Below are positions 53,574 through 58,485 of a stretch of DNA of 64,000 bases, in pieces; the stretch's first letter is position 1, and every line of letters starts with the position of its first letter. The notes below the pieces were generated by a model, which was not told the DNA's origin, made no database searches, and was given only the letters and a program-made list of their open reading frames with translations. Made by a program: the position numbers and the translations under genes. The stretch comes from a virus (taxonomy: Duplodnaviria; Caudoviricetes): IMG/VR virus record IMGVR_UViG_3300030330_003913; one strand, written 5' to 3'.

Positions 53574-53605
53574 AATTTAATAATAAAACCATATAAAAGT
53601 CAAGC
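53574..53605 (-). promoter_or_regulatory. Sigma70-type promoter of polB
   Basis: GCTTGACT-N18-TAAATT. Confidence 0.7.
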
Positions 53606-53616
53606 TTTTTTTTTAA

Positions 53617-53645
53617 TAAAATGGGTGGTATATTTCAACCACCCA
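53617..53645 (-). terminator. Intrinsic terminator after TonB-dependent receptor gene
   Basis: TGGGTGGT-N8-ACCACCCA followed by U-run. Confidence 0.8.
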
Positions 53646-53653
53646 AATTACAA

Positions 53654-56389
53654 TTAGAAATTAATAGACACTCCAATGTTTGCGTATCTTGGTGTTCCCA
53701 AGAATACTTCTGCATTGTGTGGTAAGTGTTCCTTAGAACCAAACCCATTGTATCTACTATTATCTACAGCATCTTGTACAAATACTTCATCAAGTGCGTT
53801 GAATACATGAGCAGTTAAAGAAATGTCATGTCCCTTGATAGGAAGTTTATATGATGCATGTAAGTCAAGTTTTGAGTAACCTGGGGCTTCCCAAACTTGA
53901 GCTCTATCTGCTTCTCCATCCTCAATCTCTCTTGCGGCTGGACTCCAATCAGAATAGTTTTTATCATATGTTTTGTATAATGCCTGTAGTCTTAATCCTT
54001 TAACTGGTTTAAGTGTAACACCTAAAATATAGGCGGTTTGTGGCATGTCACCAACATATAAACCATCAAGTGCATATGAATATTCGGTTGATGTTTGACC
54101 AATTACTTGACCTTCATCATTATATTCCATTTCTTGGTAAGTACCATTGGCATCACCATCAAATTTCCAATTACCGAATGACGCGATTAAATCAAGTTCA
54201 ACCAACTCATTTGGTTTTACTTTAGTTTCAATCTCTAAACCTTGATGTTTTTGATTAACACCTTTTAGGAAGATAATATCAGTATCACCTGATGAACCTT
54301 GACCTGTCTCTACTGATTTAGTCAAGTTTCTATCTAACCAATCGGTATTGTATGCACTAACTCTAACTCCAAGTTTGTTAGTACCGAAGTTTGCACCAAT
54401 CTCATTATGTAAGAATTTCTCATTGTCTGGGTCTGATGCTACGGTTCCATCGTAGTAGATAACATTATCTAATATAGGAGCCTTTTGGACATATCCTGTA
54501 TTTAGGAATACTCCAAGATTCTCGTTTACATTATATAATGCACCACCTTTAACTTGGTATGTTGAGATTGGGTCTGCTTTAATTACAGCATCCTCAATAG
54601 TGAAATGGTCTTGGTAAGAATACTCAATAGAAGAAACACCACCCATACCATATAGGTTTAGTTTTTCTGTTGTGTAGTTACCTTGTACGAATCCACCAAT
54701 CCAATCTACGGTTGTTTCATTGAAGTATGCAATCTCGTCACCGAGTCTTACGACTTTACCTTCTTCAAAGTTGTCGTCTGCATAATCAACATAGTAATCA
54801 CCACCTAATAAATCACGAACTTCACGAGCGTGTTCTATACGAGCAGTTCTCCAATCCAATCCAACTTGTAGTTCTAATGCATCACTAACTTCATAGTTTA
54901 ATTTACTAATCAAACCATATGTGTTTTGACGATTTATAGAATTACGAAGAATTCCTGTTGAACGATTTTCTGTTGTTGAGAAGTTCTCATCAATGTTATC
55001 AGAATTTTGAGCAATCTCTGCATTCCAATCCCATTGCCAAGGTGAAGATGCATACCATCTTTCTCCCTCAACTGCAGGTTTTCTACTTACACTACCATAA
55101 GTTCCTGTACCACCACCTGAACCACCACTCCAATATAAAACAGAACTTAATCTTGTTTTATCATTGATGGTTAAGAAGTGATTTAAATTCACTAATGGTT
55201 TGTGGAAGAAGTTTTCTCTTTCGTTCAAGAAGTTCTTGTTGAATCTACTTGTAGTGTTCGCTCCATACATATACCAATATTGTTTACCTGTATATGATGG
55301 GTCAATAGGTGCGACATTTTGATTGAAAAATCTACCAGCTTCAGTTTCAAACTTCTCACCCTCTGAAAATGCAGTAGTATCATATCCATCAATACTACCT
55401 GCCAACTCTTGAGAGTAAGTTGCGATATTCTGTTTGTATAGATTTTGTCCATGTCGTTGTGGAGCACCGATGGCATACAATTCAAATCGTTGGTCTTCAC
55501 TTACTGCATAACTACCACCAAAGTAGTATGCCCAAGCATCAGTCCATGTACCATCTATAATTCCATCACCAGTTTTACGAACAATAGTTCCACTTAAAGC
55601 CAACTTGTCATTTAATAATAGACCAGTATTGTAGTTGAAAGTAGTTTTAAGAAAACCACCATCTCCAGCTTCTTGTTTGAACTTCCCACCTTTTTCAAAA
55701 GATGTAGGGTCGGTTATGATGTTCATAGTTCCACCAATAGAAGGTGTCGCTAAATTAACAGCAGATAGACCTCTTTGAACCTGAATTGAAGATGTAGCAT
55801 CACCTACTCCATCCCAATTAGACCAATAAACCCATCCATTCTCCATGTCATTTTGGGGAACACCATTAATCATCACTGCAACATTTCTTTGATTAAAACC
55901 ACGAATGTTGATACGAGCATCACCCGCACCACCACCTTGTTGTGTTGCATATACTGATGGTGTTGTGTTAAGAATCATTGGAATGTCTTGTGAACCAAGT
56001 CTTACTTCCATTTCTTCTTTACTAACATTAGTATAAGCCACAGGTGTTGTTTCAGATGCACGAGATGCTAACACCTCAACATCTGATAAGGAAACCACAT
56101 CAAAATCCAATACGAAGTTTAATGTAGCGATACCCTCAACAACTACTGATTTAGTTATTGAAGAGTAACCAATGAAAGAAGCCACTACATCATAGGTTCC
56201 ATTAGAAACATCAATAGAAAAAGCACCATCTTTATCTGATACTCCACCTAAATCTGTTCCAAGAACTACAACATTAGCTCCCTCAAGTGGTTTTGAGTCA
56301 ACATCAACAATAGTTCCAACAATAGATTGTGCGAACAATCCTGTCATCAATACCATTGATGCTAATAGATTACGATATTTCATAATCAT
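53654..56389 (-). CDS. TonB-dependent outer membrane receptor with N-terminal carboxypeptidase-regulatory-like domain
   Basis: Signal peptide; PLEGANV..G/SFIGY; plug IRGF...INGVP, GGTMNIIT; terminal F. Confidence 0.93.
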   Translation of the reverse strand: MIMKYRNLLASMVLMTGLFAQSIVGTIVDVDSKPLEGANVVVLGTDLGGVSDKDGAFSIDVSNGTYDVVASFIGYSSITKSVVVEGIATLNFVLDFDVVSLSDVEVLASRASETTPVAYTNVSKEEMEVRLGSQDIPMILNTTPSVYATQQGGGAGDARINIRGFNQRNVAVMINGVPQNDMENGWVYWSNWDGVGDATSSIQVQRGLSAVNLATPSIGGTMNIITDPTSFEKGGKFKQEAGDGGFLKTTFNYNTGLLLNDKLALSGTIVRKTGDGIIDGTWTDAWAYYFGGSYAVSEDQRFELYAIGAPQRHGQNLYKQNIATYSQELAGSIDGYDTTAFSEGEKFETEAGRFFNQNVAPIDPSYTGKQYWYMYGANTTSRFNKNFLNERENFFHKPLVNLNHFLTINDKTRLSSVLYWSGGSGGGTGTYGSVSRKPAVEGERWYASSPWQWDWNAEIAQNSDNIDENFSTTENRSTGILRNSINRQNTYGLISKLNYEVSDALELQVGLDWRTARIEHAREVRDLLGGDYYVDYADDNFEEGKVVRLGDEIAYFNETTVDWIGGFVQGNYTTEKLNLYGMGGVSSIEYSYQDHFTIEDAVIKADPISTYQVKGGALYNVNENLGVFLNTGYVQKAPILDNVIYYDGTVASDPDNEKFLHNEIGANFGTNKLGVRVSAYNTDWLDRNLTKSVETGQGSSGDTDIIFLKGVNQKHQGLEIETKVKPNELVELDLIASFGNWKFDGDANGTYQEMEYNDEGQVIGQTSTEYSYALDGLYVGDMPQTAYILGVTLKPVKGLRLQALYKTYDKNYSDWSPAAREIEDGEADRAQVWEAPGYSKLDLHASYKLPIKGHDISLTAHVFNALDEVFVQDAVDNSRYNGFGSKEHLPHNAEVFLGTPRYANIGVSINF

Positions 56390-56412
56390 CTCCTTGTTTG
56401 TTTACTTGTGAA

Positions 56413-56448
56413 CAGCACATTTTTATTCTGGTGTGCTTTCTGCCAGGG
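56413..56448 (-). ncRNA. Candidate H-type pseudoknot in the receptor leader
   Basis: CUGG-CAGAA-AGCACA-CCAG-AAUAAAAA-UGUGCU. Confidence 0.5.
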
Positions 56449-56460
56449 TATGTGAAATTT

Positions 56461-58485
56461 TTAACCATTCGTATACTCTTGGTCATCATTATCACCTGCG
56501 GTTGGTGTGATTTCTTCAACATCACAGAAGTCACCATCACAGAATTTCTCTATGTTTGCTTCTTCTGCCTTAATAACACCGAATGATAACTTACCAAGTT
56601 TTTTAATTTGTTTGTTATATTCTTTCTCATCTATTGCCTCATATGGCATTTGTGGATATGCACCCCAATCATGTCTTGGTAGTAGTGATATACCCTTTAG
56701 ATGATATTGGAAATAATTCAATACATTTGGTATTTCATCTCCTTCTGTTTCAGGATTGAATGTAACCGTACAACTTACTTGATTATCCGCCCAATGTCTT
56801 TGTAGGAACGCTGCAAGTGAGAATTGTTCCCATATACTTAGGTCTGCAGCAGTTCTGATTCCTTCACCGACATCAACTGGTATCTCTACCACCAATGTAG
56901 AATCCTCAGAACCAAAAGCAGGTTCAATTTTGTAACCTGCTTTCGTTAGTGGTTCTACCAATTCGGAATTAACTGATAATCTTATTCTTCTTATATAAAA
57001 TCTTGATTCGGGATAATGTAAACCTGGAGTACTACCAGCCAATAATGAAACGGTACCACTCGGTTTAACTGATGTAGTCTTGATTGACTTTGGTATAGCA
57101 AACCAATCAGAATATACATCATCCCATTCTTGTATGACATCATATCCATCATTTAACCATTCCTTTAGTTCGTTTAAACCTCTATGTGTTATGAATTGTG
57201 CAACACCACTAACTGAACAACCGATTCTTCTGTTTCTCAACATCACTCTGTTTGTATCACTCCAATGAGTTCTACCAAGAGTTACGGTCTTTGCATATAA
57301 GTATGCATATTTTAGTGTTCGTGCATAATCTTCAAAGTCATCATGGTTATCTGGAAATGTTTCTACTAAACAACATAACTCATAAGACTCTAATGATTGT
57401 TCTAAACATGGATTACCACCCATTACTCTATGGTCTTTGTTATCACCACCATTTTTCATACGAGAATACTTTCTCATATTATCTAACCATGCAAGTCCTG
57501 GTTCTCCATTATCTACTATTCTTTTTGAAACCTCAGTATAATCCATTCCCATCTCTGCAAATATACTATTGTTACTTGTCCAACCATATTGGTCTCTATG
57601 TGGATTTACTTTGTAATTCTTTAAATCTAAATACTCTTCTGAATTAGGGTCACCAAATACAATCTCGGCAGTTCTTCTTACATTACCCGCCACAACACAT
57701 TTACCAATTAGATTCATAATATCTACAATGGTTGTGATTGTGATTGGATTACCAGAATTACCCTCTAATACTTTTCTGATATCTTCGTGAACTTCTTTCA
57801 ATGGTTCTGGTCCTGATGATACTCCACCAAACCCTTTAATTGGAACACCTGCCTCTCTAATTTTACTATAATCAAATTTTACTTTTGGTTGTCCGTGAAA
57901 ATAACTTTCCAATAATAATCTTAATGATTCTACCCAACCCTCACGAGTATCTGGTATTTCATATGTTGTTTCTCTTTCTTCATCAATACCTTTAACAAGT
58001 ATTTCACCTGCTCCTTTGGTATCAAATCCTACACCAACTCCTAACATTGATGCGTCCATTAAGAAACAAAATGGTTTAGAATAATCGTCTTTGATTGTTT
58101 TTGTTGATACAAATGCACAATTGTTTAGTGCCGCGTATAAACCTTTTTCTTCAGTTATTGGTGTTCCCATAGCCCATAAACCACGACCTGGTGGTAAGAA
58201 CTTCATGTTGAAGATTCTCTCATACATATCTTGTGCTGACTTTTGAGCTTGCCATGGATTCCAACCTAATTGATGAGACTCAATGTGATTCATTTGCATA
58301 GAGTAAGTTCCCTCTACAACCCTTTGTACGGTTTCCCACCATCTCTCATTCTTTCCATCTTCCTTAATTCTTGAGTAGGTTCTCATGTATACGAGTTCAC
58401 CTAACCCATTGAAACCAAATGGTGGTTTCTTTCTTTTGTACTTATTTATAAAATTCTCTGATAACTTAAATTTGTGTTGTCCCAT
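56461..58485 (-). CDS. nrdJ: Class II (adenosylcobalamin-dependent) ribonucleotide reductase
   Basis: RTYSR, PPGRG, LNNC, GGNPCLE, LCCLVE, TSVKPSGTVS, C-terminal CDGDFC. Confidence 0.92.
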   Translation of the reverse strand: MGQHKFKLSENFINKYKRKKPPFGFNGLGELVYMRTYSRIKEDGKNERWWETVQRVVEGTYSMQMNHIESHQLGWNPWQAQKSAQDMYERIFNMKFLPPGRGLWAMGTPITEEKGLYAALNNCAFVSTKTIKDDYSKPFCFLMDASMLGVGVGFDTKGAGEILVKGIDEERETTYEIPDTREGWVESLRLLLESYFHGQPKVKFDYSKIREAGVPIKGFGGVSSGPEPLKEVHEDIRKVLEGNSGNPITITTIVDIMNLIGKCVVAGNVRRTAEIVFGDPNSEEYLDLKNYKVNPHRDQYGWTSNNSIFAEMGMDYTEVSKRIVDNGEPGLAWLDNMRKYSRMKNGGDNKDHRVMGGNPCLEQSLESYELCCLVETFPDNHDDFEDYARTLKYAYLYAKTVTLGRTHWSDTNRVMLRNRRIGCSVSGVAQFITHRGLNELKEWLNDGYDVIQEWDDVYSDWFAIPKSIKTTSVKPSGTVSLLAGSTPGLHYPESRFYIRRIRLSVNSELVEPLTKAGYKIEPAFGSEDSTLVVEIPVDVGEGIRTAADLSIWEQFSLAAFLQRHWADNQVSCTVTFNPETEGDEIPNVLNYFQYHLKGISLLPRHDWGAYPQMPYEAIDEKEYNKQIKKLGKLSFGVIKAEEANIEKFCDGDFCDVEEITPTAGDNDDQEYTNG

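What the first reader, a model, noticed from the sequence alone, without database searches (positions are those of the whole stretch)
56390..56460. Compact H-type pseudoknot in the receptor leader: candidate riboswitch or translational operator
Seen: P1 CUGG/CCAG, L1 CAGAA, P2 AGCACA/UGUGCU stacked with no L2, and A-rich L3 AAUAAAAA, ending about 20 nt before the AAGGAG RBS. Known: preQ1-I and SAM-II riboswitches and the T4 gene 32 operator use this topology, but I cannot match their conserved residues, and it is far too small for a cobalamin riboswitch. Inference: an unknown cis-regulator whose ligand might reveal the receptor substrate.
Basis: partly seen in the sequence, partly recalled or inferred. 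Interest (0 to 1): 0.7.

Follow-up and report, generated by a model that had tools for sequence, protein, structure and literature searches.

The report
Pseudoknot leader of phage TonB receptor
A 33-34-base RNA pseudoknot just upstream of an outer-membrane importer gene carried by uncultured marine T4-like phages is real, is kept by selection in every relative examined and matches no catalogued RNA family, so it is a new gene-control element whose trigger is still unknown.

Summary
On the minus strand, 56446-56414 reads CUGG-CAGAA-AGCACA-CCAG-AAUAAAAA-UGUGCU. It lies between a class II ribonucleotide reductase gene (nrdJ) and a TonB-dependent receptor gene, 18 nt before AAGGAG.

One sequence alone proves little: about 36 comparable arrangements occur by chance in this window. 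Comparison is decisive. Every related phage contig with the region intact carries one copy at the same place (67 distinct cores). 97% of cells pair, six of eleven pairs show compensatory changes, and each arose 4-19 times independently on a gene tree. Stem P2 has G-U but no A-C pairs, which points to sense-strand RNA.

The distance to the Shine-Dalgarno (SD) site is held at about 15-18 nt, while the distance to the nrdJ stop varies from 5 to 39 nt. Rfam 15 has no match. The nearest non-phage receptor homologues lack the motif. I found no anti-SD or terminator platform, no conserved upstream ORF and no recoding geometry. A second conserved hairpin holds the start codon.

My best reading (about 0.45) is a stably folded translational operator or standby structure for the receptor cistron, built like the T4 gene 32 leader. 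A riboswitch remains possible (about 0.2).

This scan had already reached the same conclusion on related phage DNA.

The parts
56461..58485 (-). Upstream cistron: adenosylcobalamin-dependent ribonucleoside-triphosphate reductase (class II RNR, nrdJ/RTPR type)
   Evidence: Pfam RNR_Alpha, RNR-II_ins_dom, Ribonuc_red_lgC; NCBIfam TIGR02505 RTPR 359 bits, above its cut-off
56448..56456 (-). UUCACAUAC box just after the nrdJ stop codon; conserved in many but not all relatives; role unknown
   Evidence: Seen in the leaders; the only exact copy in the window; absent from e.g. L072 and L074, so not essential to the pseudoknot
56443..56446 (-). P1 5' strand (CUGG; 5 nt, mostly ACAGG, in most relatives)
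   Evidence: pairs 2 and 3 covary (C-G/U-A, A-U/U-A); the two G-C pairs next to the junction never vary
56438..56442 (-). L1 (CAGAA); CAG nearly invariant, last two bases free
   Evidence: C 112/113, A 112/113, G 107/113
56432..56437 (-). P2 5' strand (AGCACA)
   Evidence: pairs 1, 2 and 4 covary; pairs 3, 5 and 6 are invariant
56428..56431 (-). P1 3' strand (CCAG), directly abutting P2 (no L2)
56420..56427 (-). L3 (AAUAAAAA); the five A before P2 are invariant
   Evidence: A24-A28 113/113; L3 is 7 nt in nearly all relatives
56414..56419 (-). P2 3' strand (UGUGCU)
56396..56413 (-). Single-stranded, G-poor A/C-rich spacer between pseudoknot and SD; its length is conserved, its sequence is not
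   Evidence: P2 end to SD is 15-18 nt in 55 of 67 distinct cores; column profile
56390..56395 (-). Shine-Dalgarno AAGGAG of the receptor gene
56368..56387 (-). Start-codon hairpin GAUUAUGA-AAUA-UCGUAAUC; the AUG (56383-56381) lies in the 5' arm and the 3' arm is the Arg-Asn-Leu codons
   Evidence: -6.8 kcal/mol, z -2.6 in the window; mean z -1.7 over 103 distinct relatives; the register differs between clades but a 5-8-bp stem is always kept, including ACGUUU/AAACGU versus ACUUUU/AAAAGU
53654..56383 (-). Regulated cistron: 909-aa TonB-dependent receptor (CarboxypepD_reg + Plug + barrel)
   Evidence: Pfam, NCBIfam; start set by alignment with relatives
53622..53645 (-). Intrinsic terminator closing the nrdJ-receptor unit, followed by a sigma-70-like promoter before polB
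   Evidence: 8-bp stem with 5 G-C pairs, then UUUUAUU; no terminator between nrdJ and the receptor gene

Best explanation
The element is a selected RNA structure. It is a compact H-type pseudoknot (P1 4-5 bp, L1 5 nt, P2 6 bp stacked directly on P1, A-rich L3 of 7-8 nt) in the intercistronic leader of a bicistronic nrdJ-receptor mRNA of an uncultured marine T4-like phage lineage.

It most likely acts on translation initiation of the receptor cistron. It sits at a fixed distance (about 15-18 nt) 5' of the SD. It bounds a roughly 25-nt single-stranded A/C-rich landing pad whose other end is a hairpin that holds the start codon.

I read it as a stably folded operator or standby structure rather than a metabolite sensor. 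Either a trans-acting protein nucleates on it and spreads over the open stretch to block the 30S subunit (the logic of the T4 gene 32 operator), or the folded knot itself docks at or insulates the 30S platform and so sets how much receptor is made relative to NrdJ.

Shown: the structure, its conservation, its covariation, its uniqueness, its fixed spacing to the SD and its position inside an operon.
Inferred: that it acts on translation, that it folds without a ligand, and what the partner is.
For: Structure:
- 97% of cells pair, 6 of 11 pairs carry compensatory changes, and no shuffle out of 500 reaches the covariation score.
- The top mutual-information pairs are the pseudoknot pairs.
- On a tree of 131 distinct receptor sequences the pair states changed at least 6 and 4 times (P1) and 8, 19 and 13 times (P2).
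- P2 holds 11 G-U and no A-C cells, so the fold is read on the mRNA strand.

Tertiary constraint:
- The loop bases CAG and A5, and the pairs flanking the helical junction, are invariant in 113 distinct leaders while the flanks vary freely. Loop lengths are almost constant.

Link to the ribosome binding site:
- P2 to SD is 15-18 nt in 55 of 67 cores, while nrdJ stop to P1 is 5-39 nt.
- A conserved hairpin holds the start codon.

Operon:
- There is no terminator or convincing promoter in the spacer. In some relatives the spacer is nothing but knot + pad + SD. A terminator follows the receptor gene.
- One 384-nt contig from an RNA library bridges 56282-56665 (weak).

Stability:
- Each hairpin alone is -4.4 to -4.7 kcal/mol. 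Helix stacking is about -9 and -10.5. My estimate with coaxial stacking and a pseudoknot penalty is about -11 kcal/mol at 37 C, and lower at sea temperature.

No switch platform:
- The core shows no excess complementarity to the SD/start region or to the upstream 45 nt.

Phage-specific:
- One copy per contig of 80-132 kb. It is absent from the nearest non-phage receptor homologues. In prokaryote genomes it appears only on four phage-like contigs.

Precedent:
Against: - No trans-acting factor is identified. A membrane receptor cannot autoregulate by binding RNA as gp32 does.
- This lineage's own gene 32 has a different leader (a hairpin plus a long AU-rich run).
- No RegA homologue was found in five partial contigs, although that search's control also found nothing, so it is uninformative.
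- The knot does not touch the SD or the AUG, so an effect on initiation is inferred from spacing alone.
- The stability estimate rests on generic pseudoknot penalties, not on a pseudoknot-aware program or on probing.
- Recombination between phages could inflate the count of independent compensatory events.
- The RNA evidence is one low-depth contig from a library that may contain DNA.
Confidence: 0.45

Rival explanations
1. It is a new, very small riboswitch. A metabolite linked to what the receptor imports or to NrdJ chemistry (a corrinoid, a nucleotide or nucleobase, or another nutrient) binds at the helical junction/triplex and changes ribosome access to the receptor cistron.
For: It has the size and topology of the smallest riboswitches: a 5-bp P1, an A-rich L3, coaxial stems, 33-34 nt (PMC11625349). 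Invariant unpaired bases cluster at the junction, as in ligand pockets. It sits before a transporter gene, the commonest riboswitch context. It matches no known class, so it would be a new one.
Against: There is no terminator, no anti-SD and no conserved alternative pairing. The SD lies 15-18 nt outside the knot. P2 is six Watson-Crick pairs with no L2, so the fold should be stable without a ligand (plus inference). It is confined to one phage lineage and one gene, and is absent from the nearest non-phage receptor homologues examined. Riboswitch classes normally span many taxa and several related genes.
Confidence: 0.2
2. It is an mRNA processing or stability element. An endonuclease cuts in the A-rich spacer and the knot, now at the 3' end of the nrdJ segment, blocks 3'-5' exonucleases. 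This uncouples the lifetimes of the two cistrons.
For: It has an intercistronic position in an operon with no internal terminator. It is a compact triplex-type fold of the kind that resists unwinding. An A-rich single-stranded spacer follows it. In T4, RNase E processing around gene 32 is well known (PMC3014915).
Against: Its position is fixed relative to the downstream SD and not relative to the nrdJ stop. Simple hairpins do this job elsewhere, and the invariant loop bases suggest a more specific recognition. One RNA-library contig runs through the site uncut (weak).
Confidence: 0.15
3. It is a recoding signal (programmed -1 frameshift or stop-codon readthrough) for the nrdJ gene.
For: H-type pseudoknots with A-rich L3 are the classical stimulators. 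In a few relatives P1 starts 5-8 nt after the stop.
Against: The knot lies after the stop codon at 5-39 nt, far too variable. No slippery heptamer is conserved before it. All three frames downstream are used or closed at random. The receptor has its own SD, start and signal peptide.
Confidence: 0.02
4. It is a DNA-level site (protein-binding palindromes, promoter) or a chance arrangement without function.
For: The single window sequence is not significant on its own. L3 is loosely reminiscent of A/T-rich -10 boxes.
Against: Two interleaved inverted repeats covary independently many times. G-U is tolerated but A-C never is, which marks one RNA strand. L3 varies at the positions a TATAAATA-type box would need. 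The GG...GC spacing does not fit a sigma-54 site (the sequence shows this directly).
Confidence: 0.03

Closest known systems
Translational operator of gene 32 mRNA in T4, T2 and RB69
   Same: It is in a T4-like phage. An H-type pseudoknot of two coaxially stacked stems lies at the 5' edge of an unstructured A-rich stretch that runs to the ribosome binding site, inside the replication gene block (PMC3014915).
   Different: It precedes a TonB-dependent receptor, not the ssDNA-binding protein gene. The knot ends about 31 nt, not about 40 nt, before the AUG. There is no sequence likeness. Gene 32 of this lineage has another leader. No repressor is known.
preQ1-I riboswitch (RF00522)
   Same: About 34 nt, an H-type pseudoknot, a 5-bp P1 ending in G-C pairs, an A-rich L3 able to lie in the P1 minor groove, and the string ACACC at the P2/P1 junction, as I recall it in the B. 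subtilis aptamer (from memory, not checked against a stored sequence; review PMC11625349).
   Different: There is no Rfam hit even at E 10 in a 96-nt search. There is no L2 and no unpaired specificity C before the P1 3' strand. P2 is six Watson-Crick pairs instead of 3-4. L1 is CAGNN, not U-rich. The SD is not part of P2. No queuosine genes are nearby.
Luteovirus-type frameshift pseudoknots (for example BWYV)
   Same: A compact knot with a short L1 beginning with C, an A-rich second loop and invariant G-C pairs at the junction, which suggests a base-triple-rich fold (my own knowledge).
   Different: It lies outside any reading frame, at a variable distance after a stop codon, with no slippery site.
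E. coli rpsO (S15) and other ribosomal-protein operators with pseudoknots
   Same: A pseudoknot in a leader that acts at the 30S platform or standby stage (named in PMC3014915).
   Different: Those knots include the SD and start codon and are bound by the encoded protein. Here the knot is separate from the ribosome binding site, and the encoded protein is exported.

Membership tests
preQ1-I riboswitch (RF00522) | Scores against the family covariance model | tested here: not met
   cmscan of Rfam 15 with E up to 10 on 1.1 kb and on 96-nt leader windows of the window and L048: no preQ1 hit
preQ1-I riboswitch (RF00522) | Unpaired specificity cytosine (AC or UC) immediately before the 3' strand of P1, in loop L2 | tested here: not met
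   P2 abuts P1 with no L2. The base before the P1 3' strand is an invariant A paired to U. Criterion taken from PMC11625349.
preQ1-I riboswitch (RF00522) | H-type pseudoknot with A-rich L3 over a short P1 | tested here: met
preQ1-I riboswitch (RF00522) | Association with queuosine synthesis or transport genes | tested here: not met
   Always nrdJ - motif - TonB receptor
Other pseudoknot riboswitches in Rfam (SAM-II, SAM-V, preQ1-II/III, fluoride, guanidine-III, NAD-II) and the cobalamin riboswitch | Scores against the family covariance model | tested here: not met
   No hit to any of them at E up to 10. At 33-34 nt it is also far shorter than cobalamin aptamers.
T4 gene 32 translational operator | Lies in the leader of the phage ssDNA-binding protein gene and is bound by that protein | tested here: not met
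   The gene downstream is a TonB receptor. gp32 (PF08804) is encoded elsewhere on each contig, with a different leader. Binding is not testable here.
T4 gene 32 translational operator | 5' pseudoknot followed by an unstructured A-rich run reaching the ribosome binding site | tested here: met
   criterion from PMC3014915
Programmed -1 frameshift / readthrough signal | Knot 5-9 nt after a slippery site or stop codon, with an open frame beyond it | tested here: not met
   Stop to P1 is 5-39 nt; no conserved heptamer; frames downstream are not conserved
DUF2815 RNA (RF03084) | Score at or above the gathering threshold of 41.2 bits | tested here: not met
   17.9 bits on L048 only. The model gives 10-18-bit noise all over five contigs, and none of the hits is at the leader.
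Riboswitch (generic) | Expression platform: terminator/antiterminator or SD-sequestering alternative pairing | tested here: not met
   No terminator. Longest complement between the core and the RBS region is 5.96 against 6.12 for shuffled cores.
Riboswitch (generic) | Specific ligand binding | not testable with these tools
   Needs in-line probing, SHAPE or ITC

The most novel reading that the evidence does not exclude
The knot is the aptamer of a new riboswitch class, among the smallest known and so far carried only by phages. It would sense a nutrient or cofactor tied to the phage-borne receptor or to NrdJ, and gate receptor synthesis during infection.
Probability: 0.17. Interest if true: 0.9.

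Novelty: new variant of a known kind. Interest (0 to 1): 0.6.

Why it matters
Conserved pseudoknots in bacterial or phage mRNA leaders are rare, and those studied so far have taught a lot (T4 gene 32, ribosomal-protein operators, the smallest riboswitches). This one is well supported by covariation, belongs to no catalogued family and is present in several hundred contigs of an abundant, uncultured group of ocean phages.

It controls, or at least accompanies, a most unusual phage gene: a full-length outer-membrane importer placed next to a B12-dependent reductase. Finding what reads the knot would show how these phages time or dose a membrane protein that could harm the cell if overproduced. 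If a small molecule reads it, that would also point to what the receptor imports. The knot is small enough (34 nt) for direct structural and biophysical work.

Tried and rejected
- **Nested folding of the leader.** No better than shuffles. ViennaRNA cannot score pseudoknots, so this says nothing against the knot.
- **Known RNA families.** None found in Rfam 15. The sub-threshold DUF2815 RNA hit is noise.
- **More copies.** None in the window, in five long contigs or within any locus.
- **The motif in cellular genomes.** Of 27 pattern matches, 23 are chance with poor pairing. The four real ones are phage-like nrdJ-motif-receptor contigs binned into taxonomically discordant MAGs.
- **Inheritance with the receptor from cells.** The three nearest non-phage homologues (44-49% identity) have no such leader.
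- **UUCACAUAC box as an alternative partner for the P2 3' strand.** It changes in step with P2 in one lineage only (L055), stays unchanged in the other TGCGTC lineages, and is absent in many relatives.
- **Repeated promoter box.** UUCACAUAC is unique in the window.
- **Upstream ORF from the invariant AUG at the L3/P2 border.** All three frames and lengths from 3 codons upward occur, so it is not conserved.
- **Anti-SD or other alternative pairing.** None above shuffles.
- **Extension of P2 by L1 bases with the spacer** (GUU/AAC, GUA/UAC). Seen only in some clades and not consistent.
- **Sigma-54 or T4-late-type promoter inside the knot.** The spacing and the variable positions do not fit (the sequence shows this directly).
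- **RegA homologue as a candidate repressor.** No match, but the control search also found nothing and the contigs are partial, so this is uninformative.
- **DNA search of isolate phages.** No match. The best PolB relative is Microcystis phage Mel-JY01 at 44%. No isolate carries this receptor.
- **RNA libraries.** Only contigs were available, so transcript ends, strand and level could not be read.
- **Literature.** No paper describing this motif was found.

Full report
**What is there.** The window is phage-like. All genes lie on the minus strand and include a T4-type replication set: family B polymerase, clamp loader, DnaB-type helicase and 5'-3' exonuclease. The finding lies in the 71-nt gap between a class II, adenosylcobalamin-dependent ribonucleotide reductase of the RTPR type (56461-58485) and a 909-aa TonB-dependent receptor with CarboxypepD_reg and Plug domains (53654-56383). 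On the minus strand the gap reads CUGG-CAGAA-AGCACA-CCAG-AAUAAAAA-UGUGCU, then 18 nt of G-poor sequence, AAGGAG and the start codon. The only corrections are that the true start is the second ATG and that P1 has five pairs in most relatives.

**Is it more than chance?** Not from this sequence alone. Shuffled leaders rarely contain a 4+6-bp H-type knot (16 of 20000), but the same definition finds 36 cases across the two strands of the window. The nested fold is unremarkable. The case rests on comparison.

**Comparison.**
- The receptor has about 320 relatives in IMG/VR, all at least 64% identical.
- In every locus where the region is intact the same knot lies before the receptor gene, once per locus. 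There are 67 distinct cores and over 110 distinct leaders.
- A sequence-pattern scan of the viral collection, blind to gene content, returned only nrdJ-motif-receptor loci.
- The two exceptions (L171, L184) have lost the receptor gene down to a 27-codon stub, yet keep the knot, the SD and the start.
- On 54 distinct sequences the stated pseudoknot pairs in 97.0% of cells. Three pairs in each stem carry changes on both sides. The covariation score is 0.259 against 0.115 in shuffles (0 of 500 reach it). Sliding the partners by 1-3 columns drops pairing to 18-52%.
- The highest mutual-information column pairs are the knot's own pairs.
- On a tree of 131 distinct receptor 5' regions, the paired states changed at least 6 and 4 times in P1 and 8, 19 and 13 times in P2. 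The signal is therefore not one inherited event, although recombination could inflate these counts.
- P2 shows 11 G-U cells and no A-C cell. That marks the mRNA-sense strand and argues against a DNA site.

**Anatomy that points to function.**
- L1 begins with a nearly invariant CAG. The five adenines of L3 next to P2 are invariant, and so are the two G-C pairs of P1 and three pairs of P2 around the helical junction. The neighbouring positions and both flanks vary freely. Loop lengths are almost fixed. This is the pattern expected of a base-triple-rich knot, with L1 in the P2 major groove and L3 in the P1 minor groove. That step is inference.
- The knot is tied to the downstream ribosome binding site, not to the upstream gene. 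P2 to SD is 15-18 nt in 55 of 67 cores. The nrdJ stop to P1 ranges from 5 to 39 nt.
- Past the SD there is a second structure. The bases between the SD and the AUG (in the window the AUG itself) pair with the Arg-Asn-Leu codons. In the window this is GAUUAUGA/UCGUAAUC, -6.8 kcal/mol, z -2.6. The mean z over 103 distinct relatives is -1.7. Different clades use different registers but always keep a 5-8-bp stem. One Arg-to-Ser codon change (CGU to AGU) is matched by the complementary change in the 5' arm.
- The receptor's initiation region is therefore an open, A/C-rich stretch of about 25 nt carrying the SD, bracketed by the knot and a start-codon hairpin.

**Operon context.** No terminator and no better-than-chance promoter lies between nrdJ and the receptor gene. 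A strong intrinsic terminator and a sigma-70-like promoter follow the receptor gene, before polB. In some relatives the whole gap is just knot, pad and SD. One 384-nt contig from a marine RNA library spans the receptor start, the leader and the nrdJ 3' end. This is weak support for one bicistronic mRNA, because such libraries can contain DNA.

**What it is not.**
- Rfam 15 has no match, even in 96-nt searches at E 10. An 18-bit DUF2815 RNA hit is noise.
- It is not a preQ1-I aptamer. The topology, size and A-rich L3 agree, but there is no L2 and no unpaired specificity cytosine before the P1 3' strand, which is the defining feature given in PMC11625349. P2 is a full six-pair helix.
- It is not a recoding signal.
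- It does not start a conserved upstream ORF.
- It was not inherited with the receptor gene from the non-phage homologues examined. The nearest ones (44-49% identity) have unrelated leaders.
- In 185,579 prokaryote species genomes the true motif occurs only on four phage-like contigs binned into discordant MAGs.
- It is single-copy in contigs of 80-132 kb.

**How it most likely works.**
- Each hairpin alone is worth about -4.5 kcal/mol. The two helices stack for about -9 and -10.5. With coaxial stacking and a standard pseudoknot penalty I estimate about -11 kcal/mol at 37 C, and more at sea temperature. The knot should therefore form by itself.
- I found no alternative pairing with the SD/start region or the upstream flank above shuffled controls.
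- A stable, stand-alone fold at a fixed distance from the SD, confined to one phage lineage and one gene, fits a protein-read or ribosome-read translational operator better than a metabolite switch.
- The nearest precedent is the T4 gene 32 leader. There a 5' pseudoknot nucleates cooperative binding over an unstructured A+U-rich run that covers the ribosome binding site (PMC3014915).
- That is a likeness of design, not membership. The gene here is an exported receptor, and this lineage's gene 32 has a different leader.
- My probabilities are: operator or standby element about 0.45, new riboswitch about 0.2, processing or stability element about 0.15. The remainder goes to minor or unforeseen roles.

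**Earlier notes of this scan.** Look-ups show that the same knot was already followed up on related phage genomes, with the same verdict (real, uncatalogued, mode open). They also show that the receptor was traced by others to SAR406-type bacteria. I did not test that origin. One of those notes mentioned a start-codon hairpin, which I tested here. My scores rest on the tests above.

**Verdict.** It is a new variant of a known kind (a leader pseudoknot operator). Interest 0.6.

Noticed in passing
L171:5122-6764 and L184:7887-9529: Two related contigs have lost the receptor gene. Only a 27-codon stub (MKNRNLISLAVF...) remains behind an intact knot, SD and start. It is followed by an unrelated 483-aa ORF with no detected likeness to the receptor.
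   Followed up: partly
L312-L316 (gene 32 loci of five related contigs): The gp32 genes of this lineage have their own leader: a conserved hairpin (for example GUAUCAAG...CUUGAAUAC) followed by about 45 nt of A/U-rich sequence up to the SD. This may be their version of the gene 32 autoregulatory site.
   Followed up: no
window 56448-56456 (-): A UUCACAUAC box directly after the nrdJ stop codon is conserved in many relatives, unique in the window and absent in others. In one lineage (L055) it reads UUCGCAUAC where P2 reads GACGCA/UGCGUC, but this is not general.
   Followed up: partly
L032, L048 and most of the family, the 4 nt before P1: A GCGG (or CGUGGG) box immediately 5' of P1 is conserved in most of the family but not in the window's clade. 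No partner was found for it.
   Followed up: no
L204, L207, L216, L222: Phage contigs carrying nrdJ-motif-receptor are filed in public MAGs of a Flavobacteriales bacterium, a Methanobacteriota archaeon, a Candidatus Pelagibacter and an unclassified bacterium. These look like binning errors, so such labels are no guide to the host. L216 is 93-96% identical to the window at the protein level.
   Followed up: partly
L299, about 1000-1030: One relative has L3 shortened to four adenines (CCUGU-AAAA-UGUGUC). This is either a degenerate copy or an assembly error in the A run.
   Followed up: no
window 56389 versus 56383: The longest-ORF start (911 aa) begins at an ATG that abuts the SD. Alignment with relatives shows the real start is two codons later (909 aa).
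   Followed up: yes
window, all genes: 52 of 91 ORFs have an AGGAG-type SD at the proper distance. The host therefore probably uses SD-led initiation, which is worth weighing against a Bacteroidota-type host despite the SusC-like N-terminal domain of the receptor.
   Followed up: partly
window 53574-53645 (-): A strong intrinsic terminator lies after the receptor gene, followed at once by TTGACT-18-TAAATT before polB. This marks the nrdJ-receptor pair as a separate transcription unit inside the replication block.
   Followed up: partly
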